Virus record (IMG/VR): IMGVR_UViG_2974716774_000001
Coordinates: 1-61,736 of that record
Length of the DNA: 61,736 nucleotides
From: Jacunavirus JC01
Lineage: Duplodnaviria; Heunggongvirae; Uroviricota; Caudoviricetes; Casjensviridae
Reading direction: 5' to 3' (one strand)
Both the position numbers and the translations under genes were made by a program. Positions 28,651 to 41,894 of this stretch are shown here, piece by piece (within the stretch, counting starts at the first letter, position 1; each line of letters begins with the position of its first letter). Below the pieces are notes generated by a model, which saw nothing but the letters and a program-made list of their open reading frames with translations, searched no databases and was not told the origin of the DNA.

Positions 28651-28868
28651 CAGATGAACCGCGTATCTACATGCGCCATGCGCGCGCTATGAACATCTGC
28701 GGCCCGGGCGTGGAGCGCATCGCCGAGCGCATGGGGGTCAACCTGATGGACTTCCTGGAGAACGGGTATCCGTGCGCACTGGCCGAGAAGTCCGCTAACC
28801 CGCTGCTGCGCAAGGCCGCGGCAATGGCACGCGAAGAGTGGGAGGCCGCACATGGGAAAGGCCAGTAA
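28647..28868 (+). CDS. Hypothetical protein
   Basis: 73-aa ORF overlapping neighbours by 4 and 17 nt in the tail tip operon. Confidence 0.35.
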   Translation: MTDEPRIYMRHARAMNICGPGVERIAERMGVNLMDFLENGYPCALAEKSANPLLRKAAAMAREEWEAAHGKGQ

Positions 28869-31800
28869 GGTTACAGTCGGCTACAAATATTATATGGGCC
28901 TGCACATGTCGATCTGCCGCGGGCCGGTCGACGAGCTGTGCGAGATTACCGTGGGCGATCGGCAGGCCTGGCAGGGCTCTGTCACCGGCAACACGCAATT
29001 CAGCATCAACAAAAAGAACCTTTTCGGCGGCACCAAAGCGGAAGGTGGCATCGACGGCACGCTGGACGTGATGATGGGCGGCGCTACCCAAACTATGTCG
29101 AGCAAGCTGCGCGCGATGCTGCAGGGCGATCAGCCGGAGTTTCGCGGCCTGATGACGACCTTCTTCGACGGCATGGTCTGCGCCATGTCGCCGTACCCGA
29201 AGGCCTGGAAGTTCCGCGTTCGTCGCATCCTGTCCGGCTGGGATGGCCCGGTGTGGTATCCGCAGAAGGCAACCATTAACCTGACCGGCTATTACGACGA
29301 TGGCTCCAGTCGCCAGATTAAGGCGATGAACCCGGTTCACATCATTTACGAAGCGCTGACTAACCGCGCGTGGGGGCTGGGCCGCGACCGCTCACTCTTC
29401 CTCGATGACGCGTGGCGTAAAGCTGCCGACGACATCTACGACGAAGGCTTCGGTCTGTGTATCCGCTGGGGGCGGCAGGACACGCTGATGTCATTCGTGC
29501 AGACGATTATCGACCACATCGGCTGCGCGGTATACGTGGACAAGTTCACCGGTAAATTCAAGATAAAGCTCATCCGCAACGACTATGACGCGGATTCTCT
29601 GCCCATAGTGGATATGGACTCCGGCCTGCTGTCTATCGACGAGGCGACCAACGCGTCGACGTATAACCTCATCAACGAAGTGATCGTCAACGCGCACAAC
29701 CCTGTCACCAACAAAGACTTTCAGGCCCGTCAGCACAACCTGGCGCTCATCCAGACGCAGGGCGCGCTGAACAGTGACACCCGCGACTACCCGGGCATCC
29801 CGACGCCGGAGCTGGCCATCCGCATCGCCCAGCGTGACCTGAAGGCGGCCTCGACCAACGTCCGGCGCTTCACCGTGACCGCCGACCGTCGGTTGTGGCG
29901 CCTGCAGCCCGGCGATGTCTTCAAGCTGCGTGACCCGCAAAGCCGCGGTATCGAGACTGTGGTCGTGCGCGTTGGCAAGGTGGAAGAGACTAACCAGACT
30001 GACGGCAGTATCAAAATCACTGCAGTGCAGGACGTCTTTGGCGTTGAGCTGAATACCTTCGCTGACGTTCAGCCGCCATCCCACGTCGAGCCGACTTTCG
30101 ACCCGCAGCTGGCCCGTCGTCTGGTTTACGAGTACACCTACGCCGAGCTGGCCCGCCTGCTGCCCACCGGTGAGTTCGAGGCTATCAAACCGGCGGAAGG
30201 CTTTGTCCACGCCCATGCGGAGAAGCCGACGGCCATGTCTGCCGGTGCTGACCTCGCGGTGCGCCCGGAGGGCCAGGCTAACTTCGTCGTTAACGGCACC
30301 ACCGACTTCACGCCACTGGCCGAGCTGCAGAACCAGATTGGCTACCTCGACACGCAGCTGCAGTATTACCGCGAGATTGACTTCGACGATGACGAAGAGG
30401 TGTATGTCGGCATGTCGCTGCTGATCGGCGATGGCCAGAAGAACGAAATAGTGCGTCTCGATGCGCTTGACCGCACCACGAAGACGATGACTATCGCGCG
30501 TGGCTGCTGGGATACTATCCCGCAGCGGCATTTCGGCGGCGCGCTTATCTGGGCTATCGAGGATAACGGCGGCACCGACGCGACGAAGTACCTGTCCGGC
30601 GAGACCGTCGACGTCAAGATCCTCCCGTTCACCCTGCGCGGCGGCAGCTACCCTATCGACGAAGCGCCGATTGACAGCGTGCTCATGCGCCATCGCTTCT
30701 TCCGGCCGTACGCGCCCGGGCTGGTGGAGGTCGAGACAATCGCCCGTGGCAGCAAAGCGCCGTGGTACGTCTCTTTCGACCTGCGGGCTGACGTCGGCTC
30801 AAACGAGGTGCCGGACTTCGCGCTCATCACCTGGGCTCACCGCGATCGCCCGGTGCAGCAGGATAAGCTGATTGACCACATGCAGACCAGCATCGGGCCG
30901 GAACCGGGCACGACGTATCGCCTGCGTGTCTTCAACGCCACTGGCGCGCTGGTACGCACCGAAACCGGCATCACCGGCACGCAGTTCGCCTATACCTACC
31001 AGATGGCCGCTGATGACACGCAGGTGGAGCTGGAAGCCACAGAGTCGACCTTCGGCACCATCTTCCTCGATGCGCAGCGTGACGGCGTGGATTCGTGGAT
31101 GTACTACACGCTGACGTTCACCGTTCACAAGAAGCCGCCGCAAAACGGCGAGGTGGCGCTGCTCTCGATGCAGACGACCGCCGATGACACCGACATGACC
31201 TCCAACCCGGATAACGACCTCTCCGGCGCGCAGGTGTCGAGTATGCAGATGAACGCGACGCAGGATGACTCGGATATCGCGACAGGCGACGACAACACCG
31301 GCGGCCAGGTGGCGCTGATGAGCGAGAACGCCACGCAGACCACGAAGATCCTGCCGACCATCGACTTCTACCTGTACGAAGCGCCCTACCTGACGCTGGC
31401 GCGGGAAGGCCGCGATTTGACGCATTCCCAGATGCTCGGCTTCGTTGCGCGACCGTCTGACCGTGCTACCGATGGCTACGACTTCTGTGACCGCCTGCAG
31501 GGCGAAGAGGCCTGGCACAATAACGGCGCCGCGCCGTGGACTCCGTGGGGCGTGCTGAAGGGCTTCATGGCGCAGCTGACCAACGAGTTTGAAGTCGACC
31601 TGACCAGCGATACTGATGGCGTGCCGATCGGCTCCGTCCAGCAGGGCGACGTGCTGCTCATCGACAACGAGCTGATGGTCGTGCAGTCTGTCGACGGAAA
31701 ACGCTTCACCGTTGGCCGCGGTGCCGTGGATACCGTACCGGCCATCCACTACGCGAAAGTCGTGGTATGGCTGTTTGACCGCGCGCACGCTGCTGCCGAC

Positions 31801-32670
31801 AGGCTTTACGGCGACAACGACGTGGCCAACGCCGTCATCAGGCCACACAGCTTCGCCGAGGCTATCCGCCCTGAGGATATGCCGTTTAAGCAGCTGCAGA
31901 TGCAGTACCGGCCAATCCGGCCATACCCGCCGGGCATGTTGCTGTTTAACGGCCAGCACTGGTTCAAGCGCATCAACGCACTGGCAGACGAGAACTACGA
32001 GAAGCCGCAGGGCAAGCCGGTCATCGTGACCTGGGCGCACCGTAACCGCATCTGGCAGGACGACGAAGCGTACGACCACTACGCCACGGGCATCCCGCCG
32101 GAGCCGGGTGTGGAGTACCGTATCTGGATTGGGTACCGGTACATCGAGAATCGCCAGGAAGTGAAGGTCACTCTCGATACGCTGGTGACGTCGGATGCCG
32201 GTATCACGTTCACCAAAGAGATGGTAGAGCGCTGGGGCGAGAAAGCTGGCCGCTTCCTACAGTCTCCCGGCTTTGTCGGCGTAGAGGTGGCAGTCAACGC
32301 AGTGCGGGATGGCGTGTTTAACTGGCAGGGCTACGGCGCGCAGATGCTGCTGCCGTCTTACCCGCTGAGCCCGGGCGAGAAGCCTGGCGGCGGCACGGTT
32401 CCGCCAGACCCGGAATACCCGCAGCCCGGCGACCCGACGCCTAACCCGAACGACCCGGATCCAAACCCGAACCCGGGCGACGGCAATGGCGACACCGACC
32501 CGCTGCCAGACCCGGGCAACCCAGACCCGAATCCGGATCCGGAAGTGCCGGACACTGACCCACCGGCGCCAGAACCGGAGCCGGAGCCAGACCCGGAGAA
32601 CGTATTCGGCTGGTCGAACAACTGGGATCACGGCTGGGCATCGAAACTGCCTGACCAGAACGGAGAATAA
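28852..32670 (+). CDS. Tail tip central fibre / host specificity protein (lambda gpJ-like)
   Basis: 1272-aa ORF; internal region ELAIRIAQRDL...RRLWRLQPGDVF resembles the gpJ pattern; C-terminal Pro/Asp/Asn-rich low-complexity linker. Confidence 0.65.
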   Translation: MGKASKVTVGYKYYMGLHMSICRGPVDELCEITVGDRQAWQGSVTGNTQFSINKKNLFGGTKAEGGIDGTLDVMMGGATQTMSSKLRAMLQGDQPEFRGLMTTFFDGMVCAMSPYPKAWKFRVRRILSGWDGPVWYPQKATINLTGYYDDGSSRQIKAMNPVHIIYEALTNRAWGLGRDRSLFLDDAWRKAADDIYDEGFGLCIRWGRQDTLMSFVQTIIDHIGCAVYVDKFTGKFKIKLIRNDYDADSLPIVDMDSGLLSIDEATNASTYNLINEVIVNAHNPVTNKDFQARQHNLALIQTQGALNSDTRDYPGIPTPELAIRIAQRDLKAASTNVRRFTVTADRRLWRLQPGDVFKLRDPQSRGIETVVVRVGKVEETNQTDGSIKITAVQDVFGVELNTFADVQPPSHVEPTFDPQLARRLVYEYTYAELARLLPTGEFEAIKPAEGFVHAHAEKPTAMSAGADLAVRPEGQANFVVNGTTDFTPLAELQNQIGYLDTQLQYYREIDFDDDEEVYVGMSLLIGDGQKNEIVRLDALDRTTKTMTIARGCWDTIPQRHFGGALIWAIEDNGGTDATKYLSGETVDVKILPFTLRGGSYPIDEAPIDSVLMRHRFFRPYAPGLVEVETIARGSKAPWYVSFDLRADVGSNEVPDFALITWAHRDRPVQQDKLIDHMQTSIGPEPGTTYRLRVFNATGALVRTETGITGTQFAYTYQMAADDTQVELEATESTFGTIFLDAQRDGVDSWMYYTLTFTVHKKPPQNGEVALLSMQTTADDTDMTSNPDNDLSGAQVSSMQMNATQDDSDIATGDDNTGGQVALMSENATQTTKILPTIDFYLYEAPYLTLAREGRDLTHSQMLGFVARPSDRATDGYDFCDRLQGEEAWHNNGAAPWTPWGVLKGFMAQLTNEFEVDLTSDTDGVPIGSVQQGDVLLIDNELMVVQSVDGKRFTVGRGAVDTVPAIHYAKVVVWLFDRAHAAADRLYGDNDVANAVIRPHSFAEAIRPEDMPFKQLQMQYRPIRPYPPGMLLFNGQHWFKRINALADENYEKPQGKPVIVTWAHRNRIWQDDEAYDHYATGIPPEPGVEYRIWIGYRYIENRQEVKVTLDTLVTSDAGITFTKEMVERWGEKAGRFLQSPGFVGVEVAVNAVRDGVFNWQGYGAQMLLPSYPLSPGEKPGGGTVPPDPEYPQPGDPTPNPNDPDPNPNPGDGNGDTDPLPDPGNPDPNPDPEVPDTDPPAPEPEPEPDPENVFGWSNNWDHGWASKLPDQNGE

Positions 32671-32672
32671 TC

Positions 32673-33410
32673 ATGCCATTAAAAAATGCCCCGAGTCAGG
32701 GGCTTAACTACGGATGGGTGCGCGGCGAGGACTACTGGGGCGGCCCGGTCAACGACGACCTTATCTTCCTCGATACGCTGCTGCACCCTGTCGTCAGGTC
32801 AATGTCTTTCAGCTCGCCACCAGCCGATGCCGTGCCGGGCGACCGCTTCATCGTGGCGGCCAACCCGACAGGCCCGTGGGTGAACCACGCGGGGGATCTG
32901 GCGGCGCTGGTGGAAGGCACATGGGTTTTCTATAAACCGAAGACCGGCTGGCGTCTGCGCCTGCTCTCCACGAATCAGTTCGTCTGGTACAACGGGGATA
33001 ACTGGCAGGATGAGGTGACAGGGGATGACCCGGTTAACCCCGGGCCGGATCCAACGGTCAAGCCGACAGCGTACGACATCGCGGTGACAGTGAGCGACGC
33101 CATGTACCCGGACGAGGCGCTGGTGCATATGCCTCTGCTCGATGCGATGATGCTCCCGGCCAACATGGCAGACAGCTCGCTCGACATGCTACAGTCGTCT
33201 CAGGTTTACGCGCAGATGCGAGTGCAGAGGAACGGCACCAACGTGGGCACCATTACCGTTGAGGCAGGCTCGTACAATGCCACCTTCGCCACGGCCGGTG
33301 GAAACGCCGTTCCCTTCGCCAAAGGGGATCGCCTGACTATCCGTGGCCCGGCAGTCGCGGTGGACGCATTCAAGAATTTTGGATTCGTCATCCGCCTGAA
33401 ATTCGTGTGA
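32673..33410 (+). CDS. Hypothetical tail-associated protein
   Basis: 245-aa ORF with RBS GGAG directly after the gpJ-like gene. Confidence 0.45.
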   Translation: MPLKNAPSQGLNYGWVRGEDYWGGPVNDDLIFLDTLLHPVVRSMSFSSPPADAVPGDRFIVAANPTGPWVNHAGDLAALVEGTWVFYKPKTGWRLRLLSTNQFVWYNGDNWQDEVTGDDPVNPGPDPTVKPTAYDIAVTVSDAMYPDEALVHMPLLDAMMLPANMADSSLDMLQSSQVYAQMRVQRNGTNVGTITVEAGSYNATFATAGGNAVPFAKGDRLTIRGPAVAVDAFKNFGFVIRLKFV

Positions 33411-33417
33411 GGAAAGC

Positions 33418-34371
33418 ATGGCCACCTTTATCGACGGCTTTGAACAGTTTGACGGCGACCGCACTGCGGCGCTGATGCGCATGGCAGGCTACTCCGTCGG
33501 CGGTGTCACCCTGGCGGCGGGCAGGAAGGGCAACAGCCGCTCGGTCAGCTGCTACCGCGCCACGCTCTCCCGGGCATGGTCGATGGTCGACAATCTCCTG
33601 ACGCTGGGCTTCGCGGTCAAATTCGACCAGCGTGGCCCGCTGCTGTCCGTGGGATCCGGCGCGAACCAGCTGTACCTGTGGGTAGACCCGGAGACCGGGC
33701 TGGTTAACCTCGGCACTGGCCTGGCGGCCGGTACGCCGGGATACATCAACCCGCTGAAAAACCGCTGGTACTACTTCGAGCTGCAGCTGGACAAGTCCAC
33801 CAGCAAAGCGACGCTGTTCGTGAATGGCAAACAGGACATCTCGATACCGCTGCCATCCTTCATCACCGGCAACCTGACCGTGCTGCTCAACCCGTTTCAG
33901 CTCTTCGTGGCGCCGAAGGAGGACTACGGCACGCGGCTCTACGACGACCTGTACCTCAACGACGGCCCGCGGCTCGGCCCGATTCAGGTCACGTCGCGTT
34001 TCGCCACGGCGGATGGCAGCAAGACCGGCTGGAGTTTTGACGGTGCTGCTACGCGCTGGCAGGCGGTGTCGCCGCCGATTAACGAGCTGGACAAGTTTAT
34101 CTACACGGCGATCGACGGGAACGAGAACAGCTTCATCTCCGGCACCTCGCTGCCGGACAATAACCCTATCCGGTACCTGCAGCTGGTAACGCTCTTCAGG
34201 AAGGCCACGTCTGACCCGATGAGCCTCGACTTTAACATCGGCAGCCAGGTGAAACGTGAGTCAAACATCAGCCGCGACTGGACGTTCCGATATACGATGA
34301 TGAGCGCGTCGGGGTATGATGCCGACAGCATTAAGGCCGCCGAGTTCGGCGTCAAACTGATTCTGGGGTAA
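33418..34371 (+). CDS. Paralog 1 of a five-member tandem family (putative lectin-like tail fibre/decoration protein)
   Basis: 317 aa; N-terminal M-x-x-F-I-D-G-F-E; internal RWYYFELQL...LFVNGK; RBS GAGGAAAG. Confidence 0.55.
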   Translation: MATFIDGFEQFDGDRTAALMRMAGYSVGGVTLAAGRKGNSRSVSCYRATLSRAWSMVDNLLTLGFAVKFDQRGPLLSVGSGANQLYLWVDPETGLVNLGTGLAAGTPGYINPLKNRWYYFELQLDKSTSKATLFVNGKQDISIPLPSFITGNLTVLLNPFQLFVAPKEDYGTRLYDDLYLNDGPRLGPIQVTSRFATADGSKTGWSFDGAATRWQAVSPPINELDKFIYTAIDGNENSFISGTSLPDNNPIRYLQLVTLFRKATSDPMSLDFNIGSQVKRESNISRDWTFRYTMMSASGYDADSIKAAEFGVKLILG

Positions 34372-34375
34372 ACAC

Positions 34376-35353
34376 ATGCTGATTTTTATGGATGGCTTCG
34401 AGCAGCTGAGAGACACGGTGGCCTCCGGCTCGCCTTCCCCGCTGCTGACAGTTCTCAACGCCTCCGGCTACACCGCCTCAGGCAATATCACCGTTGACCC
34501 AGCGCGCGTTCAGACGTCGCGCTGCCTGACGCTGGTGGACACGGCGACGCTGAAGCGCACCTTCACCTCGACGCAGGGCAAGGTCGTTATCGGCTTTGCG
34601 TACAAAGGCGGCACCCGCACGGATATCACGAATATCACGAACGTCGGCGCGCTGCAGTGGGATGCGACCACGGGCAAGCTGAAGATGGCCAATGGCACCG
34701 GCACGGCCACGGTGCTGCTGGACACGTGGTATTACTACGAGATTGTGATCGACAAGGCGAACCAGCTACTGCAGGTCTTCGTGAATAACGGAAAAGACAT
34801 CGAGGTCGGGCTACCGGCCAGCGCGCAGAACCTGTCGACATTTGAGTGCCTGTGGGCTGGCGCCGCGGCCGATAACAAAGGCGTTGATGACCTGTACTTC
34901 GTCGACAGCGCCACCGGCCGCTACGTTGACCGCATGGGGCCGATAGCCATTACCGCCCGCCTGCCCACGCAGGACGTCGACAAAGAATGGTCGCCTTCCA
35001 GCGGCACCGACCACTGGGATCTCGTCAATAACATGCCGCCGGTCGACGACCAGTATGTCCAGTCAAACACCTCCGGCGCGACTGACACGTACCTCTCGAA
35101 CGTCGGTCTGCCTCAGGGCGCCGCGATCCTGGCCGTCGGCATCACGGCGCTGAATAAGAAGTCCGATATCGACGCCCGGCAGCTGGGGCTGGTCATCGGG
35201 CGCAAGGGCCAGACGCAGAAGGAAAAGGTGGACACTCAGCTCTCCACCAGCCCAAAATACAGTTACGCCGTCTTCGAGACCGCGCCGGACAACACGGCGT
35301 GGACGGATGAAAGCGTGACCTCAGTACCGTTCGGCGTCGTCGTGCGCCCATAA
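34376..35353 (+). CDS. Paralog 2 of the tandem family
   Basis: 325 aa; N-terminal MLIFMDGFEQ; TWYYYEIVID...VFVNNGK; YVQSNTSGATD motif. Confidence 0.55.
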   Translation: MLIFMDGFEQLRDTVASGSPSPLLTVLNASGYTASGNITVDPARVQTSRCLTLVDTATLKRTFTSTQGKVVIGFAYKGGTRTDITNITNVGALQWDATTGKLKMANGTGTATVLLDTWYYYEIVIDKANQLLQVFVNNGKDIEVGLPASAQNLSTFECLWAGAAADNKGVDDLYFVDSATGRYVDRMGPIAITARLPTQDVDKEWSPSSGTDHWDLVNNMPPVDDQYVQSNTSGATDTYLSNVGLPQGAAILAVGITALNKKSDIDARQLGLVIGRKGQTQKEKVDTQLSTSPKYSYAVFETAPDNTAWTDESVTSVPFGVVVRP

Positions 35354-35366
35354 CAGGAGAAACACA

Positions 35367-36392
35367 ATGTCTCTTAAATTTCAGGACGGCTTCGACCACT
35401 ACGCCGCAACCGGAGTTAAGGGCGCGACGCTTCAGCCGTATCTCACCGATAACGGCTACGATGTGCGTAACGCCTCCGACACCACGTTCGCCGTGGTTGA
35501 TGGTCGACGTGCTGGCGCGCGGGCGCTGCAGTTCACCGTGGCGCGAAACTCAACGACGAACGCGTCGCTGTCGTGGGGCTTCACCTATCAGGGCGACTAC
35601 GCCTGCTTCGGCTTTGCGATGAAGGCCAGCGGCTCCCGTATGCGCATCTGCCGCATCGAGAACGTCATCGACGTCGACTGGGATGCCACTACCGGCAAAA
35701 TCAGCGTGGCGGGCCAGCTGGGCGTTAACCCGCTCATCCTGAACGACTGGTACTACTTCGAGATTGAATGCGACTTCACCGCGAATAACGTTAAGATCTG
35801 GGCGAACAACGAACTGCAGCTGACCGTGGATATCTCGTCCGTCGCGAAGCCCGCGAAAGCGACTATCGTGTGGGGCCAGGTAGGCACCGCGCCGGATGCT
35901 GGCGTGCAGATCCTGGATGACTTCTACGCGCTCGATGCCGGTGGCACCTCCAATACCGCACGCCTGTCGCCGATTGAAGTCGTGACCCGTGCGCCGTCAG
36001 CCGACATCACGACCCAGTGGGAGATCGTGAACGCTACGGCAGGCACGCCGCACTACCAGATCGCCGGGCAGCTGGAGCCGAACAAAGCGGGCGCGCCGTA
36101 CCTGCAGTCGAACACCGCTGGCGCCACTGACCTGTTCCGCTCCAACACCGCGCTGCCGACAGACAACACGGTCTTTGCGGTCTCCGTCATCGCGTACGCT
36201 CGCAAGGGCGACGTGGACGACCGCAAACTCGGTCTGCTGATCCAGCCTGAGGGCGGCTCTGAGTCCGAGACGCAGGTGCCGCTGACGGAGGCCTTCAAGT
36301 ATTACCAGCAGACCTTCGATAAAACGCCGAGCGGCGGCGCGTGGAATAAGAACATTGTAGAGTCGCTGCAGTTCGGCATCCGCACGCGCTAA
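35367..36392 (+). CDS. Paralog 3 of the tandem family
   Basis: 341 aa; N-terminal MSLKFQDGFDHYA; DWYYFEIECD...IWANN; YLQSNTAGATD motif; RBS AGGAGAAA. Confidence 0.55.
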   Translation: MSLKFQDGFDHYAATGVKGATLQPYLTDNGYDVRNASDTTFAVVDGRRAGARALQFTVARNSTTNASLSWGFTYQGDYACFGFAMKASGSRMRICRIENVIDVDWDATTGKISVAGQLGVNPLILNDWYYFEIECDFTANNVKIWANNELQLTVDISSVAKPAKATIVWGQVGTAPDAGVQILDDFYALDAGGTSNTARLSPIEVVTRAPSADITTQWEIVNATAGTPHYQIAGQLEPNKAGAPYLQSNTAGATDLFRSNTALPTDNTVFAVSVIAYARKGDVDDRKLGLLIQPEGGSESETQVPLTEAFKYYQQTFDKTPSGGAWNKNIVESLQFGIRTR

Positions 36393-36401
36393 GGAGCCAG
36401 C

Positions 36402-37559
36402 ATGGCCATTCTTTTCGTTGAAGGCTTTACCGGCGTGCCGCGCGTCGCAAACGGCGGGTGGGCAAACACCCATCCGCTGTACGCGCTGGGCTGGACGCTG
36501 AACGCCAAATACAACGGCTCCAGCGCCGTATCTGCGTCCGATGGCAACGTGGTGGCCAGCGTAGAGGCAGACCCGACGTTCGCCACGCGCAGTCAGGTGT
36601 CGCTGCAGAAAACGTCGGCGAATGGTTCGCTGTCGCTGGTGCAGCAGATGACGCAGGCTTTCGACACCTCCGGGTATCAGAAGTACGTCATCGGCGGGAT
36701 GTTCCTGGTGAGCCAGACGGACACCTCAGCGGCAGGCGGCTACGTGGTTATTTCGGGCGCTGTGCAGTTCCCAAGCTCCCAGGGCAGCTTCCCTACGGCT
36801 GACATCCTTGCGCAGTTCTACGTGCCGAATAACGGGGCTGACGGCACCGCGTCTGCGACCATTGTCAGTCAGTCGCTCGTCACGCCGCTGCTGAAGAAGG
36901 ACAAGTGGACGCACTTCGAGGTTTTCGTCGAACAGGACACCGACCGCATTCGCGCCTACCTCGATGGCACGCTGGTGCTGGACTACACCTACACCGGCAC
37001 CTTCGGCTCGGCAACCGGCGGACTCAGCCTGACGGCGTTGCGCTCCACGGCACAGACGGGCGTCTTCACCACGAAATTCTCTAACGTCTACATGCTGGGC
37101 TGCGACGACGTTCATACTGGCCCTCTCGGCCCGGGTGCCCGCGTGCTGGAAGTGGCGCCAGCGGCTGACTTCGCCGTGACGTGGGGCCGTCCTGCCAGCT
37201 TTGCGAGCAACGCCGCGGTGCTGCAGCAGGCCTTCAACGCCGCCGCGCCGTCGTTTCTGACCACGGCCGATACCACGCCAGACCTGTACAAAGGCCCGGA
37301 CGCAGTGGCGGCTAACGCGGCTACGGTGTACGGCGTGGCCATGAAAGTGAACGCGATGACAATGGCCGAGGGCAACCACGCGATCGCGGCCGCCGCGCAG
37401 TACGGCACCAGCAGCTCCGTGGGGCCGCGCAGCTACAACCTGCAGCTGGGTACGCTCAAGCCGCTGGTGCTGGACATCTCGAAGAACCCGGCAACGGCCG
37501 AGCGCTGGACACCTTCGGAAATCACCGCGGCCGGTATCGGCATCAAGATGCTTAACTAA
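36402..37559 (+). CDS. Paralog 4 of the tandem family (more divergent)
   Basis: 385 aa; N-terminal MAILFVEGFTG; KWTHFEVFVEQD...YLDG; RBS context TAAGGAGCCAGCATGG shared with paralog 5. Confidence 0.5.
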   Translation: MAILFVEGFTGVPRVANGGWANTHPLYALGWTLNAKYNGSSAVSASDGNVVASVEADPTFATRSQVSLQKTSANGSLSLVQQMTQAFDTSGYQKYVIGGMFLVSQTDTSAAGGYVVISGAVQFPSSQGSFPTADILAQFYVPNNGADGTASATIVSQSLVTPLLKKDKWTHFEVFVEQDTDRIRAYLDGTLVLDYTYTGTFGSATGGLSLTALRSTAQTGVFTTKFSNVYMLGCDDVHTGPLGPGARVLEVAPAADFAVTWGRPASFASNAAVLQQAFNAAAPSFLTTADTTPDLYKGPDAVAANAATVYGVAMKVNAMTMAEGNHAIAAAAQYGTSSSVGPRSYNLQLGTLKPLVLDISKNPATAERWTPSEITAAGIGIKMLN

Positions 37560-37568
37560 GGAGCCAGC

Positions 37569-38645
37569 ATGGGCGTCACCCTGATGGAAAACTTTGACTG
37601 TGACGTGGGCGCGCTGGTGGAGCGGGGCTGGGTTATGCCCGCCACCACGACGAACGTCTTCACAGCCATTGAGCAGTTCACTGAGAACGGCATCACCCGA
37701 AACTGCTTCCGCCACAGCATGTCGATGAGCTATTACGGCTTCGGCGCGTTCTACCCGTTCCGCATCCCGCTGCCCGCATCGAAAGAGTTTTTCGTGTCAT
37801 TCCGGATGCGCTACCCGAACGCCTCCCGTATCAACTCGTCAACCGCATGGAGCGTCTCTACTAACAGTGGGCGTTCAGCCGCGAACCTGGTGCTGGAGGT
37901 CTACCCGGCCGATGCTTATTCCAGCGTCTACCTGAAGAACAACGGACAGGTGGCGGGGTCTCCCAGCTACCGGTTCAACCATCAGACGTGGGCGACCATT
38001 GAGATGCAGCGCAAAGCGGACGGCTCGACGAAGGTGTGGGTGGACGACATGCTGCTCTACAGCGCAAACGCAAACACCACGGCCTCGGCGGACAACTACC
38101 TGTACATGGGCGTGGTCAATGCCGGGCAGGGCAGCACGATTGATGGATATCAGATAGCCGACGTCGTTGTCATTGACCCGACCACGGCAGGCCTGCAGAA
38201 TCGACCGGGATCCAGTGAGCGCGTATTGTCGCTGGCCGCAAGTGCCGATGTGCTGGCACAATGGACGGCGATCGGCGGCGCCACCGAGCCGCACAACCAG
38301 CTGATGAAAAACTATCCGGCCACGGTGGATACGACGAAAGTGCTGCAGGGCGACACCGCAGGGCAGCGCGAGCAATACAGCCTCGCGGATTTCCCGGCAG
38401 GCTTTGGCACGCAGCTGCTGACGCTCGGCTTTGAGCAGCGCGCGAACAACCCTGGCAGCTCGCCGCACGTCTTCACTACCGAAGTGGATCTGGGTGCCGG
38501 GCCTGTCGGTGTCGCAGATAACACCGTGGCACCCGGCGCAACGTACAGCTATCGCCCGGTGTACGTGGCCTCAAAGCCCGGCGGCGGTACATGGACAGCG
38601 GCGGACATCCCGGCGCTGAAGATAGGCTTCTCCGTTAAGTCATAA
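37569..38645 (+). CDS. Paralog 5 of the tandem family (more divergent)
   Basis: 358 aa; N-terminal MGVTLMENFD; QTWATIEMQRK...VWVDD; same RBS context as paralog 4. Confidence 0.5.
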   Translation: MGVTLMENFDCDVGALVERGWVMPATTTNVFTAIEQFTENGITRNCFRHSMSMSYYGFGAFYPFRIPLPASKEFFVSFRMRYPNASRINSSTAWSVSTNSGRSAANLVLEVYPADAYSSVYLKNNGQVAGSPSYRFNHQTWATIEMQRKADGSTKVWVDDMLLYSANANTTASADNYLYMGVVNAGQGSTIDGYQIADVVVIDPTTAGLQNRPGSSERVLSLAASADVLAQWTAIGGATEPHNQLMKNYPATVDTTKVLQGDTAGQREQYSLADFPAGFGTQLLTLGFEQRANNPGSSPHVFTTEVDLGAGPVGVADNTVAPGATYSYRPVYVASKPGGGTWTAADIPALKIGFSVKS

Positions 38646-38654
38646 GGCGCATAT

Positions 38655-40763
38655 ATGGCCGAAGCTATTAAGATGGCGGGCTACCGACTGGTAAGCCTGT
38701 CCTATAACGGCAAAACGCCGGACAAGCTGGGCGCGGCCACCGCAGGTACGCTATCCATCATCTACGTTGAGGCCGCGATAAACCGCGTCGCCTCTTTTCG
38801 TCTTACCGCCCTGAGCGCAGCTACCCGATCCCCTGACAGAATTGGTGCCGTGTCTGCGGCCACCACGGCCATGATTTACGTCGAAGCGCCGGTCAACCGC
38901 ATGGCCACGTATCGCCTGGTCGGCCTGAGTGCCACGACTCGCCAGCCGGACAAGCTGGCAGTGGCCACTGCAGGTCTCGTGGCGTTCCTGATCCGCCCGC
39001 CTTTCGGCAGCGCGCAGGCCGGGCGCTTCGGCTTCATCATCGAGCAGAAAGAGGTCGGGCCTCCGGCGTACGTGAAAGAGGCACAGCTGCTCGTTACCGC
39101 CGCGCGGCAGGTGCCGCCGGTAAGCCAGGTCATCTCGTACGAGAGCGTGCGCCAGACAGTGATGCTGACGTCCATGCTCTACGGCGCGATGCCGTTCCCG
39201 CTCTCCTACACTCGCGCGAAGCAGCTGCACCAGCTCGTGCTGCAGGCGAAGCCGATCAGCACTATCTCGTACGAGTCCGTGAAGCAGGTGCGCAACCTGG
39301 CGGCGACGCAGTTCAACTACATCATTCCGGGAGACGTCTGGTCGAAGAGCAGCGCCGCCCAGACCGTGATGCTGGTCTGTCAGTCGCTCACCATTCCGTA
39401 TACGCCGACGTCCGGCGAGTACCTCAGGCAGAACCTGATGCTGGTGGCGCTGCAAAGCGCGCCAATGCCCATCCGTATTTCCCGCGTTACCGTGCGGCAG
39501 GAGAGCGTGCTGGTGGCGCTGAAGCGTCCGCAGGAGAGACTGCCACGGTCGATTACCCGCGTGCCGCTGGTGACGACGCTGGCTTCGCAGAGACGCATCG
39601 ATCCGATGCCGCGCTCCGCCGAATTTGTGGGCGCCGTGCTTTCGCAGGCGTCAGTGCCCACGGTAATGCCGGAGCCGCACGGCCCTGACCACGTAGCGCA
39701 GCTGTATTCGCTGGCGCTGGTTCCGACCGTTATGCCCGCAGTCCAGGGCGTGCAGCAGGTTAAACAGGAGCGCGTGCTGGTGTCGCAGGCCCGCCCGGCG
39801 CCGCTACCGATTTCCCGCGAGGCTGTACCTCAGGTTACGCTGCTTGCCTCGCAGGGCACGTCATACCCGGCACCGGGATCCATGTCGAGCCTGCAGGTGA
39901 AACAGGAGCGCACGCTGGCGCTGGTGCAGTCGTCCTATCCGCCGCCGACCCGCATCTCCTATACCGCCGTGCCTCAGGTGGCCATTGCGTTCATGACCCA
40001 CCCTCCAGCGTCTTACTACCCCGACCCGGAAGTGGTGTACGAGCGCTCGCGCTATGACTTCGTGTCGCAGTTCGTCGAGCTGGTGACGATGGGTCGACCG
40101 TTGGCGCTGCCGCTGTCCTATGTGCCGGTGCCGCAGCTGGCCATGCTCACCGCGCAGCACGCGGACTACCTGTCGCCGGAAGAGATGGCTCGCTCCGGTG
40201 CCTTCACCTGGCAGGTCATCGAGAACGTCGCGACCACAGCGGACTACCCTTCCGCCGACGCACCGGCCAGCCGCGTTATCGTGCCGCAGCTCATCGAGCA
40301 CGTTGCGGTGACGGCCGACTACCCTGATGCCCATCTGCCGGTCAATTACGCGATTGTGACGCAGGTCGTGGAGCATACGGCCACGGTTGAGACTTATCCC
40401 GATCCGGGCACCCTTCAGTCAGTGCAGAATGTGTGGCAGGTATCCGAGCAGCTGGCGGTCGAAACTGATTACCCGGACGCTGGTGCGCTACACTCACCTG
40501 TGATAGCTTTGCAGCTTGTTGAGCAGGTCACTTCGTCGGCTAACTACCCGGACAAAGATTTCCCGCAGTCTTTCGTCCGGCTGGCTCAGGCGACACAGCA
40601 GGTGGCCTTCAAAGCAGCTTACCCTAACAAGGACGTTCCACAGTCCTCGGCTCGGGTAAATCAGGTGCTCCAGCATGTTGCCCGGCGCGACCTGACGATG
40701 TATCAGCTACCGGTACCGCCGCGGCGCCACAGAGTGCGGGTCGTGTGCCGATTCGTGTACTGA
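38655..40763 (+). CDS. Repeat-rich protein (putative tail fibre shaft)
   Basis: 702-aa ORF with three types of internal tandem peptide repeats (N-terminal about 38-aa units, central ISYESV-type units, C-terminal about 27-aa units ending in DYPD/TYPD/NYPD). Confidence 0.55.
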   Translation: MAEAIKMAGYRLVSLSYNGKTPDKLGAATAGTLSIIYVEAAINRVASFRLTALSAATRSPDRIGAVSAATTAMIYVEAPVNRMATYRLVGLSATTRQPDKLAVATAGLVAFLIRPPFGSAQAGRFGFIIEQKEVGPPAYVKEAQLLVTAARQVPPVSQVISYESVRQTVMLTSMLYGAMPFPLSYTRAKQLHQLVLQAKPISTISYESVKQVRNLAATQFNYIIPGDVWSKSSAAQTVMLVCQSLTIPYTPTSGEYLRQNLMLVALQSAPMPIRISRVTVRQESVLVALKRPQERLPRSITRVPLVTTLASQRRIDPMPRSAEFVGAVLSQASVPTVMPEPHGPDHVAQLYSLALVPTVMPAVQGVQQVKQERVLVSQARPAPLPISREAVPQVTLLASQGTSYPAPGSMSSLQVKQERTLALVQSSYPPPTRISYTAVPQVAIAFMTHPPASYYPDPEVVYERSRYDFVSQFVELVTMGRPLALPLSYVPVPQLAMLTAQHADYLSPEEMARSGAFTWQVIENVATTADYPSADAPASRVIVPQLIEHVAVTADYPDAHLPVNYAIVTQVVEHTATVETYPDPGTLQSVQNVWQVSEQLAVETDYPDAGALHSPVIALQLVEQVTSSANYPDKDFPQSFVRLAQATQQVAFKAAYPNKDVPQSSARVNQVLQHVARRDLTMYQLPVPPRRHRVRVVCRFVY

Positions 40764-40771
40764 TATGACTA

Positions 40772-40791
40772 ACGGGCTTCGGCCCGTTTTT
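40772..40791 (+). terminator. Rho-independent terminator after the tail fibre region
   Basis: Hairpin ACGGGC-TTCG-GCCCGT followed by TTTTT. Confidence 0.6.
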
Positions 40792-40806
40792 ACTGAAGGG
40801 GTATCT

Positions 40807-41136
40807 ATGTCCAACCAAAATGCAGACGAAGGGGCAAAATCGGGCGTGAAAGTCGACCTGACAATCAACATCCCGACAATGCTGTCTCTGTTCGCGATGG
40901 TCGCGGGATCCATCACCTATGTTAACGGGCAGATCACCGCCATCAACAATCAGCAGCTCGTGACCGTCGGCGACGTGAAAGTGCTGCAGACGCAGGTAGC
41001 GGCACAGGGAGCGGCGCAGACCGCGCTCCGCGCTGACACCGCCACCCAGCTCGCCCAGTTCCGCACCGAAGTCCGGTCAGACCTACGTGACCTGAAAGAA
41101 GGTGTGGATCAACTCAACCGAAATAGTGGACGTTAA
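40807..41136 (+). CDS. Putative holin (single transmembrane segment)
   Basis: About 110 aa from the ATG at 40807 with RBS GAAGGGG; one hydrophobic helix INIPTMLSLFAMVAGSITYV; directly upstream of the lysis genes. Confidence 0.35.
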   Translation: MSNQNADEGAKSGVKVDLTINIPTMLSLFAMVAGSITYVNGQITAINNQQLVTVGDVKVLQTQVAAQGAAQTALRADTATQLAQFRTEVRSDLRDLKEGVDQLNRNSGR

Positions 41137-41138
41137 TC

Positions 41139-41894
41139 ATGCCGAAATATACCGAGTATTTTGGAAACGCCTCTCTGCCTCGTGGGATCCGGAACAACAA
41201 CCCGGGCAACATCGAATGGGGCAGCCCGTGGCAAGGTCTGGCCAAGACCATCGGGCGCAACCGGGATGACCGATTTGCGCAGTTCGTCGACCCGGCCAGT
41301 GGCATCCGCGCCATTGCCGTGACACTCATCACCTACTATGACAAGCGCAAAGCCAAAGACGGCAGCCGCATCGACAGCGTGCGCGAAGTTATCGATCGCT
41401 GGGCACCGCCGGTCGAGAACAACGTGTCCGCCTACGCGAAGCAGGTGGCCGCGGTGCTCAACGTGCGCCCGGAGGATGAAACGCTAAACCTCCACAACTA
41501 CGACACCATGCGCGGGCTGGTGGAGGGCATCATCCGCCACGAAAACGGCGACCCGAAAAAAGCTGGCGTCACTCCGTACAACAACGCAAACCAGTGGTAT
41601 CCGGACGAAGTGATCGACGAGGCTCTCCGCCGCGCCGGTCTGGTAAAGAAGGTCGCCACGGTAGGCTCCGTTCCCGCCACTAAGACGACCGCCGCTGCCG
41701 GTACCGTCGCTGCCATTGGCGTTGGCCAGCTTGCTGAAGTCAGCCAGCCGGTCATTGACGCCGTGCGCAACTCGCAGGACAACATCACCTCAGGTCAATG
41801 GACGCGCATCGCTTTCGGTGTCGTTACCATCGGCATCGGGGCGTGGCTGACGTACCTGCAGTACCGCAAATACAAAGCGGGTCAAGCCGTATGA
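41139..41894 (+). CDS. Putative endolysin / cell-wall hydrolase with C-terminal transmembrane segment
   Basis: 251-aa ORF between the holin candidate and the spanin pair; conserved-looking GIRNNNPGNIEWG segment; C-terminal hydrophobic helix IAFGVVTIGIGAWLTYLQY. Confidence 0.4.
   Translation: MPKYTEYFGNASLPRGIRNNNPGNIEWGSPWQGLAKTIGRNRDDRFAQFVDPASGIRAIAVTLITYYDKRKAKDGSRIDSVREVIDRWAPPVENNVSAYAKQVAAVLNVRPEDETLNLHNYDTMRGLVEGIIRHENGDPKKAGVTPYNNANQWYPDEVIDEALRRAGLVKKVATVGSVPATKTTAAAGTVAAIGVGQLAEVSQPVIDAVRNSQDNITSGQWTRIAFGVVTIGIGAWLTYLQYRKYKAGQAV

What the first reader, a model, noticed from the sequence alone, without database searches (positions are those of the whole stretch)
38655..40763. 702-aa protein built almost entirely of tandem peptide repeats
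The protein has three repeat classes: about 38-aa N-terminal units (RLVSLSYNGKTPDKLGAATAGTLSIIYVEAAINRVASF and variants), central ISYESVRQ/ISYESVKQ-containing units, and six C-terminal units of about 27 aa each ending in DYPD/TYPD/NYPD. It follows the five-paralog array and precedes a strong terminator and the lysis genes, so it may be a fibre shaft or spacer. The repeat architecture is unusual for a phage tail fibre.
Basis: seen in the sequence. Interest (0 to 1): 0.55.

Follow-up and report, generated by a model that had tools for sequence, protein, structure and literature searches.

The report
All-repeat protein of Chi-like tail-fibre cassette
This 702-residue phage protein really is built almost entirely of short peptide repeats, belongs to an uncharacterised family found only in relatives of the flagellum-riding phage Chi, and is a good but unproven candidate for part of their long tail fibre, whose composition is still unsettled.

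Summary
The window is the complete genome of Cronobacter phage JC01, a Chi-like siphophage. The ORF at 38655-40763 is real. It is the ortholog of Chi gp36 / YSD1_35 (PHROG 7226, function unknown).

The repeats are confirmed well beyond chance, but there are two classes, not three:
- three 38-residue N-terminal units;
- one array of 23 units of 21-27 residues (residues 137-685). The "ISYESV" units and the "YPD" units are diverged members of this one array. The YPD units have a period of 25 residues, not 27.

A conserved 17-residue basic and hydrophobic tail ends the protein.

Across 52 relatives the long array keeps 21-24 units, with lengths quantised at about 545, 568, 592 and 614 residues. 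The N-terminal module varies from 62 to 192 residues and appears to be exchanged together with the last two upstream paralogs.

Gene order is the same in all eight contexts examined: J-like hub, DUF2793 fibre, 3-5 paralogs, this protein, lysis genes. A Klebsiella pneumoniae relative with the same virion chassis lacks the paralogs, this protein and the C-terminal half of J.

No Pfam, NCBIfam or PDB match exists. AlphaFold2 fails on the monomer and on a linked trimer.

Most likely it is a structural shaft or thread of the long flexible tail fibre. Presence in virions is untested.

The parts
38655..40763 (+). ORF of 702 aa; ortholog of Chi gp36 / YSD1_35; PHROG 7226
   Evidence: E=2.3e-137; 100% to the Cronobacter phage JC01 hypothetical protein; 39% identity to Chi gp36 over residues 136-702
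38685..39029 (+). N-terminal module: three 38-residue units (residues 11-125), weakly predicted as beta-strands; the most variable part of the family (16% mean identity; 62-192 residues in relatives)
   Evidence: (period 38)
39063..40709 (+). Main array: 23 units of 21-27 residues (residues 137-685), register S-x3-V-x-Q-h-x-x-h-h-...-(Y/F)P-x-...-P-x
   Evidence: unit table; position-specific consensus
39372..39416 (+). Most conserved internal segment (residues 240-254, LVxQSxxIPYxPxSG; S244 invariant)
40194..40709 (+). Best-conserved sub-array: seven 25-residue 'YPD' units (residues 514-685); the same module also occurs at the C-terminus of a 1536-aa protein with an F5/8 type C domain in a 229-kb contig
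40710..40760 (+). Conserved C-terminal tail PVPPRRHRVRVVCRFVY (basic patch then hydrophobic strand); the most conserved part of the family (51% mean identity over residues 679-702)
   Evidence: (similar tail in the distant relative P0058); the only strands that pair in the linked-trimer model, at low confidence
40771..40793 (+). Terminator-like hairpin AACGGGC-UUCG-GCCCGUU followed by a U-run, 8 nt after the stop codon
   Evidence: centroid -11.8 kcal/mol, z = -2.63; not flagged by the consensus scan
33418..38645 (+). Five upstream paralogs (317, 325, 341, 385 and 358 aa; PHROG 2448-like; weak concanavalin-like hit in the fourth). The last two are highly diverged and are shared or absent together with the N-terminal module of the repeat protein
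32673..33410 (+). DUF2793 short fibre protein (245 aa), related to the trimeric tail fibre of roseophage R4C
28852..32670 (+). J-like hub / central fibre protein (1272 aa), ortholog of Chi gp30 / YSD1_29 (PDB 8vjh). It ends in a Pro/Asp-rich spacer of about 90 aa and a conserved GWSxxWDHGWA motif
40808..41894 (+). Lysis genes that follow: Rz-like/lysis protein (likely start 40808) and endolysin (41139-41894)

Best explanation
The protein is a structural component of the single long flexible tail fibre that Chi-like phages use to catch the rotating flagellum. It is probably the thin, periodic shaft or thread.

Shown:
- It is the conserved last gene of the cassette J-hub, DUF2793 fibre, 3-5 lectin-like paralogs, repeat protein.
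- It consists of three N-terminal 38-residue units, 23 units of about 24 residues, and a conserved C-terminal tail.
- The number of units in the main array is held at 21-24 across the family.
- The N-terminal module is shared or absent together with the last two paralogs.
- The cassette is absent from a relative that infects a non-motile host.

Inferred:
- Each unit contributes a short amphipathic helix plus a (Y/F)PD...PxS loop to an elongated, flexible, regularly spaced rod, built as a homo-oligomer or together with partner proteins.
- The variable N-terminal module docks the variable paralogs, which are candidate adhesins.
- The highly conserved C-terminal tail is the oligomerisation or attachment point to a conserved virion part.
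For: Position and packing:
- There are 9 nt between the stop of the fifth paralog and this start codon. A terminator-like hairpin closes the operon.

Conserved synteny:
- The order is seen in Chi, YSD1, HMD-P1 and seven metagenomic loci, down to about 25% identity.

Distribution:
- 157 phage records carry the protein, essentially all Chi-like phages of motile enterics. The J-hub domain occurs in 748 records.
- Yonseivirus MAG26fr (K. pneumoniae) keeps the chassis but has a 758-aa J, no paralogs and no repeat protein. This matches the report that Yonseivirus replaced the long flexible fibre (PMC12264135).

Length constraint:
- The region aligned to residues 136-702 is quantised at about 545, 568, 592 or 614 residues in 52 relatives with 17-73% identity.

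Mosaic joint:
- Residues 136-702 are 45% identical to both L010 and L012. Residues 1-135, par4 and par5 have counterparts only in L012.

Fusion:
- The YPD module sits at the C-terminus of a 1536-aa protein with an F5/8 type C (carbohydrate-binding) domain, within a run of tail-like genes on a 229-kb contig.

Open question in the literature:
- The Chi fibre is about 220 nm long (PMC4342425) and its composition is unresolved (PMC10399903).
- Chi's J-like protein (1296 aa) is only slightly longer than lambda J (about 1130 aa, my recollection). That makes it unlikely to form 220 nm of fibre alone. This step is an inference.
Against: - I could reach no virion proteomics, immunolabelling or genetics for any member.
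- Published immunogold work assigns the fibre to YSD1_29, the J-like protein (as cited in PMC12264135).
- The deposited Chi tail-tip structure contains no homolog of this protein.
- AlphaFold2 gives no confident fold as a monomer (pLDDT 38) or as a linker-joined trimer of residues 570-702 (pLDDT 28.6).
- There is no match to any known fibre domain.
- Glycine content is low (3.3%, against 8-9% in the neighbouring tail proteins), and the unit core has helical periodicity. Both are unlike typical beta-rich fibres.
- The C-terminus is the most conserved end. That is not what one expects of a distal receptor-binding tip.
Confidence: 0.5

Rival explanations
1. Extended docking thread or molecular ruler. 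The chain does not fold on its own. It runs in an extended form along the fibre (or along a partner polymer), and each roughly 24-residue unit acts as a short linear motif that binds a copy of a partner, such as the lectin-like paralogs. This would set the fibre's length and spacing, as nebulin or microtubule inner proteins do for their filaments.
For: - AlphaFold2 fails in both monomer and linked-trimer form.
- The unit number is nearly fixed, with whole-unit steps, despite deep divergence.
- Individual units are conserved position by position rather than homogenised; there is no DNA-level repeat.
- The protein always co-occurs with the paralog array.
- A fully extended chain of 702 residues would span about 230 nm, close to the reported 220 nm fibre (PMC4342425). 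This is arithmetic only.
Against: - No partner interaction was tested.
- The units are rather hydrophobic (12% Val, 12% Ala) for an exposed extended chain.
- The number of paralogs (3-5) bears no simple relation to 23 units.
- N-terminal unit number against paralog number gave no clear rule.
- The only lattice-binder hit in the PDB (SAXO3) has E=0.45, which is chance level.
Confidence: 0.2
2. Non-virion assembly factor. It would be a scaffold or chaperone needed to fold or join the fibre proteins, then discarded.
For: - Fibre chaperone genes usually lie immediately downstream of fibre genes, and this is the last gene of the module.
- The protein is absent from the deposited Chi tail-tip structure.
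- There is no predicted autonomous fold.
Against: - At 640-770 aa it is the second-largest product of the module after the J-like protein, and far larger than known fibre chaperones (my knowledge: Tfa, gp38 and gp57A are small).
- A fixed count of 21-24 units and a strongly conserved tail suggest a dimensional role.
- The YPD module is fused in cis to a protein with a carbohydrate-binding domain in another phage.
Confidence: 0.15
3. Flagellum-gripping element. The periodic array is the part of the fibre that lies in the helical grooves of the flagellar filament, with successive units contacting successive flagellin subunits (the 'nut' of the nut-and-bolt model).
For: - The array has a regular period of 22-25 residues over about 550 residues.
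- The gene is last in the cassette, so its product could be distal.
- The family is restricted to phages of flagellated hosts.
- The nut-and-bolt model requires the fibre to fit periodic grooves (PMC12248049).
Against: - The array is more conserved than the paralogs across phages of hosts with very different flagellins (Salmonella, Proteus, Providencia, Serratia, Cronobacter). Flagellin contact sites, by contrast, lie in the variable D2/D3 domains (PMC10399903, PMC12248049).
- No structural spacing per unit is known.
Confidence: 0.1

Closest known systems
Chi gp36 / YSD1_35 family (PHROG 7226, 'unknown function')
   Same: Full-length colinear homolog (HMM E=2.3e-137; 39% identity over residues 136-702). 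Same place in the genome, same length class, same C-terminal tail.
   Different: The N-terminal 135 residues cannot be aligned with Chi. JC01 has five upstream paralogs where Chi has four. The family has no described function or repeat analysis in the literature I could search.
Multi-protein long tail fibres such as T4 gp34-gp35-gp36-gp37 (comparison from my knowledge)
   Same: A run of consecutive tail-module genes, with paralogy among them, plausibly joined end to end into one long thin fibre. Repeat-rich shaft proteins.
   Different: No sequence or profile similarity to any fibre domain. The unit core has helical rather than beta periodicity. Assembly order and stoichiometry are unknown.
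T4 fibritin (segmented helical fibre with a C-terminal folding nucleus; comparison from my knowledge)
   Same: Many short amphipathic helical segments separated by loops. A small, highly conserved C-terminal element could nucleate oligomerisation.
   Different: The helical stretches here are only about 12 residues, with loops of equal length. No continuous heptad pattern is visible, and the linked-trimer model gave no coiled coil.
Lattice-binding repeat proteins (nebulin, microtubule inner proteins, 22-mer apolipoprotein helices; analogy only)
   Same: Many short units of fixed length, punctuated by proline. No autonomous fold is predicted. Copy number is held constant.
   Different: No homology (best PDB hit SAXO3, E=0.45, chance level). 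No partner lattice has been identified.

Membership tests
PHROG 7226 / Chi gp36-YSD1_35 family | Significant full-length match to the family profile | tested here: met
   E=2.3e-137, 460 bits. 53 representatives found among 1.84 billion proteins, most full-length.
PHROG 7226 / Chi gp36-YSD1_35 family | Position as the last gene of the tail module, after the paralog array and before the lysis genes | tested here: met
Phage tail fibre (structural virion protein) | Encoded in the tail morphogenesis module downstream of the hub / J-like protein | tested here: met
Phage tail fibre (structural virion protein) | Present in purified virions / located on the fibre | not testable with these tools
   No homolog in any PDB entry, including the Chi tail tip 8vjh. 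Dunstan 2019 and Sonani 2024 are not held in the paper library.
Phage tail fibre (structural virion protein) | Recognisable fibre domain or repeat (Pfam, NCBIfam or PDB) | tested here: not met
   No hits for the protein or for any of the 52 family members.
Phage tail fibre (structural virion protein) | Elongated homotrimeric fold | tested here: inconclusive
   AF2 monomer pLDDT 38. Three copies of residues 570-702 joined by Gly-Ser linkers gave pLDDT 28.6. No multimer predictor was available.
Tail fibre assembly chaperone | Small protein encoded just downstream of the fibre gene and not retained in the virion | tested here: inconclusive
   The downstream position is met. The size (702 aa, all repeats) is unlike known chaperones. 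Retention in the virion is untestable here.
Length-determining (ruler/tape-measure-like) protein | Protein length is constrained and scales with the length of the structure | tested here: inconclusive
   Array length is quantised at 21-24 units across the family. No fibre-length data exist for the variants.

The most novel reading that the evidence does not exclude
The 23-unit array is an extended periodic thread that does not fold by itself. It would set the length and spacing of the 220-nm fibre by binding one partner per unit. The partner could be the phage's own lectin-like paralogs or successive flagellin subunits in the groove of the rotating flagellum. It would then be a viral counterpart of nebulin-type rulers and the physical 'thread follower' of the nut-and-bolt model.
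Probability: 0.12. Interest if true: 0.85.

Novelty: new variant of a known kind. Interest (0 to 1): 0.5.

Why it matters
Chi is the textbook flagellotropic phage. It is still not established which proteins build its roughly 220-nm fibre or how that fibre grips a rotating flagellum. The papers I could read say that the fibre structure is lacking and that the assignment of the fibre gene has not been shown experimentally for Chi (PMC10399903).

This analysis points to a concrete, testable candidate. The family is conserved and all-repeat, is present in every Chi-like cassette examined, and is absent from a relative whose group is reported to have lost the long flexible fibre. Its unit count is nearly fixed, and its N-terminal module is swapped together with the most variable paralogs. 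Natural variants with one or two units more or one fewer offer a ready-made test of whether it sets fibre length. The repeat type matches nothing in Pfam or the PDB, so a structure would probably reveal a new fibre architecture.

Tried and rejected
Repeat detection that did not work or was superseded:
- Plain self-BLASTP reported no off-diagonal pair.
- Iterated HMMs seeded on the YPD units, from JC01 alone or from the family, did not extend into the central units at E<0.001. Only profile-profile self-alignment linked them.
- Tandem Repeats Finder found no DNA-level repeat.

Homology searches with no result:
- Pfam, NCBIfam and PDB searches, by sequence and by profile, gave nothing.
- The SAXO3 hit (E=0.45) is chance level.

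Structure prediction:
- The AlphaFold2 monomer and a Gly-Ser-linked trimer of residues 570-702 both gave unusable models. I therefore ran no fold search.

Ideas rejected:
- I first read the different tblastn coverage of Chi (from residue 136) and HMD-P1 (from residue 3) as N-terminal mosaicism. The two phages are 92% identical at DNA level across the region, so it was an alignment-extension artefact.
- I tested whether the number of N-terminal 38-residue units tracks the number of paralogs. Modules of 71-115 residues go with 4 paralogs, and one of 135 residues goes with 5. One locus with 137 residues has only 3, and several contigs are truncated. No rule emerges.

Tools and papers:
- The consensus terminator scan did not flag the hairpin after the stop codon. 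Folding supports it.
- The key papers (Dunstan 2019, Sonani 2024, Schade 1967) are not held.
- Searches for gene-specific terms returned only unrelated papers.

Full report
**Identity of the window and the gene.** The 702-aa product of 38655-40763 (+) is 100% identical to a hypothetical protein of Cronobacter phage JC01, whose genome is 61,736 bp, the size of the window. JC01 is a Chi-like siphophage with the Chi cohesive-end sequence (PMC9759504). The protein matches PHROG 7226, 'unknown function', at E=2.3e-137 and has no Pfam or NCBIfam hit. tblastn finds it in 157 phage records. Nearly all are Chi-like phages of Salmonella, Proteus, Providencia, Escherichia, Serratia, Hafnia and Erwinia, at 28-40% identity, and it is always annotated as hypothetical. 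The orthologs are Chi gp36 (CHI_36) and YSD1_35.

**Checking the repeats.**
- Off-diagonal 20-residue windows score 67 (shift 38), 63 (shift 25) and 56 (shift 76). Shuffles of the same protein reach at most 43.
- With a 52-sequence family alignment (A1), profile-profile self-alignment gives 16 off-diagonal alignments with E from 1.7e-55 to 3e-06. One of them joins the C-terminal YPD units to the first central units.
- Profile autocorrelation gives periods of 38 (residues 1-135), 23 (136-330), 22 (331-510) and 25 (511-690).
- A Ser conserved in 65-100% of sequences recurs at 161, 184, 205, 230, 253, 276, 299, 321, 387, 435, 488, 539, 589, 614, 639 and 664.
- Cutting at these anchors yields 23 units of 21-27 residues in one register: S-x3-V-x-Q-h-x-x-h-h ... 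(Y/F)P ... P-x.

The protein therefore has two repeat classes, not three. There are three 38-residue N-terminal units, and one 23-unit array whose last seven units (period 25, not 27) are simply the best preserved. A 17-residue tail, PVPPRRHRVRVVCRFVY, ends the protein and is the most conserved segment of the family. The repeats are ancient: there is no DNA-level tandem repeat.

**Family properties.** An exhaustive HMMER scan of 1.84 billion cluster representatives finds only 53 relatives, most 630-770 aa long. The region aligned to residues 136-702 takes lengths of about 545, 568, 592 or 614 residues, that is 21-24 units, although identity to JC01 falls to about 20%. The N-terminal region ranges from 62 to 192 residues. 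Conservation rises from 16% at the N-terminus to 51% in the C-terminal tail. Distant members (P0051, P0054, P0058) are also all-repeat, with similar FPD/YPD units. One, P0055 (1536 aa, on a 229-kb contig), carries the YPD module behind an F5/8 type C domain.

**Genomic context.** In JC01 the order is:
- J-like hub (28852-32670);
- DUF2793 protein (32673-33410);
- five paralogs (33418-38645);
- this gene;
- a hairpin with a U-run (40771-40793);
- lysis genes.

Intergenic gaps are 2-14 nt. The same order holds in Chi, YSD1, HMD-P1 and seven metagenomic loci, with 3-5 paralog-sized genes, although several contigs are truncated upstream.

Against Chi, identities are: J 47%, DUF2793 60%, par1-3 36-66%, par4 26%, par5 no ortholog, and the repeat protein 39% over residues 136-702 only. 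Two metagenomic relatives are equally close over residues 136-702 (45%). Only one of them (L012) shares the N-terminal 135 residues (39%), par4 (51%) and par5 (41%). A mosaic joint therefore lies near residue 135. The N-terminal module appears to travel with the last two paralogs, which suggests they interact or act together. This rests on only two comparisons.

**Distribution.** The J-hub domain (residues 1-750) occurs in 748 phage records from many genera. The repeat protein occurs in 157. Yonseivirus MAG26fr infects non-motile K. pneumoniae and shares the chassis. It has a 758-aa J-like protein, a 259-aa fibre protein and one 1355-aa tail protein before the lysis genes. It has no paralog array and no repeat protein. 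This agrees with the report that Yonseivirus replaced the long flexible fibre of the flagellotropic relatives with a compact one (PMC12264135).

**What the literature says.**
- The Chi fibre is a single curly fibre of about 220 nm (PMC4342425).
- Immunogold work assigned it to YSD1_29, the J-like protein. Its N-terminal part is compact and its C-terminal part could not be resolved (as cited in PMC12264135).
- Others call CHI_31 (the DUF2793 protein) the putative fibre gene. They state that this has not been shown experimentally and that no fibre structure exists (PMC10399903).
- The PDB holds the Chi J-like protein (8vjh) but no homolog of the paralog tested (par3) or of the repeat protein.
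- The DUF2793 protein weakly resembles the short trimeric tail fibre of roseophage R4C.
- I found no statement about gp36 / YSD1_35. The primary YSD1 and Chi structure papers are not in the library.

**Structure.**
- AlphaFold2 on the family alignment gives pLDDT 38. It shows weak beta-strands in the N-terminal module and weak helices of about 10 residues spaced about 23 residues apart in the array.
- A construct of three copies of residues 570-702 joined by Gly-Ser linkers gives pLDDT 28.6. The only secondary structure is pairing of the C-terminal tails.
- Both results are uninformative about the true fold, so I ran no fold search.
- Position-specific hydrophobicity of the units peaks at 100 degrees (0.93), against 0.04 at 180 degrees. 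That indicates an amphipathic helix of about 12 residues (V5, V8/A9, V12/A13, A16) followed by a conserved (Y/F)-P-D-K-D-x-P-Q-S loop.
- Composition is rich in Ala, Val, Pro, Ser and Gln and poor in Gly (3.3%).
- This is unlike the beta-rich repeats of characterised fibres.

**Interpretation.** The best-supported reading (about 0.5) is a structural shaft or thread of the long fibre. In this reading the variable N-terminal module is tied to the variable paralogs, and the conserved C-terminal tail serves as an oligomerisation or attachment element. The rivals are:
- an extended docking thread or ruler that folds only on partners (about 0.2);
- a discarded assembly factor (about 0.15);
- the flagellin-groove-binding element itself (about 0.1).

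A back-of-envelope argument supports involvement of the whole cassette, but it is inference. Chi's J-like protein is only slightly longer than lambda J (my recollection), so 220 nm of fibre needs additional protein. The cassette supplies about 2,360 residues per chain in Chi.

**Verdict.** The fibre interpretation is plausible but unproven. The protein is an ortholog within an already sequenced, uncharacterised family. Its repeat architecture, fixed unit count and mosaic N-terminus do not appear to have been described, and they make the open question of Chi fibre composition directly testable.

Noticed in passing
window 32300-32670 (C-terminus of the J-like protein): The J-like protein ends in a Pro/Asp/Asn/Glu-rich low-complexity spacer of about 90 residues, followed by a short motif conserved with Chi gp30 (V[FP]GWSxxWDHGWAxxLPD). 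It looks like a flexible tether plus a docking peptide for the next fibre component.
   Followed up: partly
window 36402-39059 (par4, par5 and the first 135 codons of the repeat gene): This block is the divergence hot spot of the tail module. Against Chi, par4 is 26% identical and par5 has no ortholog. The block is shared with metagenomic locus L012 but not with L010, although the rest of the repeat protein is equally similar to both.
   Followed up: partly
window 40765-40808: The mechanically listed ORF 40765-41136 begins inside the terminator-like hairpin. The lysis gene more likely starts at ATG 40808, behind a GAAGGGG ribosome-binding site.
   Followed up: partly
window 33418-38645: The five paralogs share an N-terminal h-x-F-x-D/E-G-F motif. 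One gives a weak concanavalin-like (Laminin_G_3) hit at E=0.002, below the Pfam threshold. The one checked against the PDB (par3) has no relative there. Their fold and role are unknown.
   Followed up: no
window 32673-33410: The best PDB match of the DUF2793 protein is chain S of 8gtc. The depositors named it 'Ribonuclease III', but the paper describes it as the trimeric tail fibre of roseophage R4C, so the PDB name is probably wrong.
   Followed up: partly
L004 10001-14611 (229-kb metagenomic contig): A 1536-aa protein of a probable jumbo phage combines an F5/8 type C domain and a Gly-rich domain with a C-terminal YPD repeat module related to this family. It is preceded by a run of seven genes of 209-639 aa.
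   Followed up: no
phage records GU169904.1, OR506460.1, PV596763.1, OR848973.1 and others: Chi-like sequences, including this gene, are deposited under Staphylococcus, Enterococcus, Pseudomonas and Listeria phage names. These are probably mislabelled, contaminated or chimeric records.
   Followed up: no
PDB 8rk3 chain o versus window 28852-31130: A 735-aa 'Tip attachment protein J domain-containing protein' matches residues 4-759 of the JC01 J-like protein at E=8e-133. Like the Yonseivirus protein, this is a short J-like protein that lacks the C-terminal half seen in Chi-like phages.
   Followed up: no
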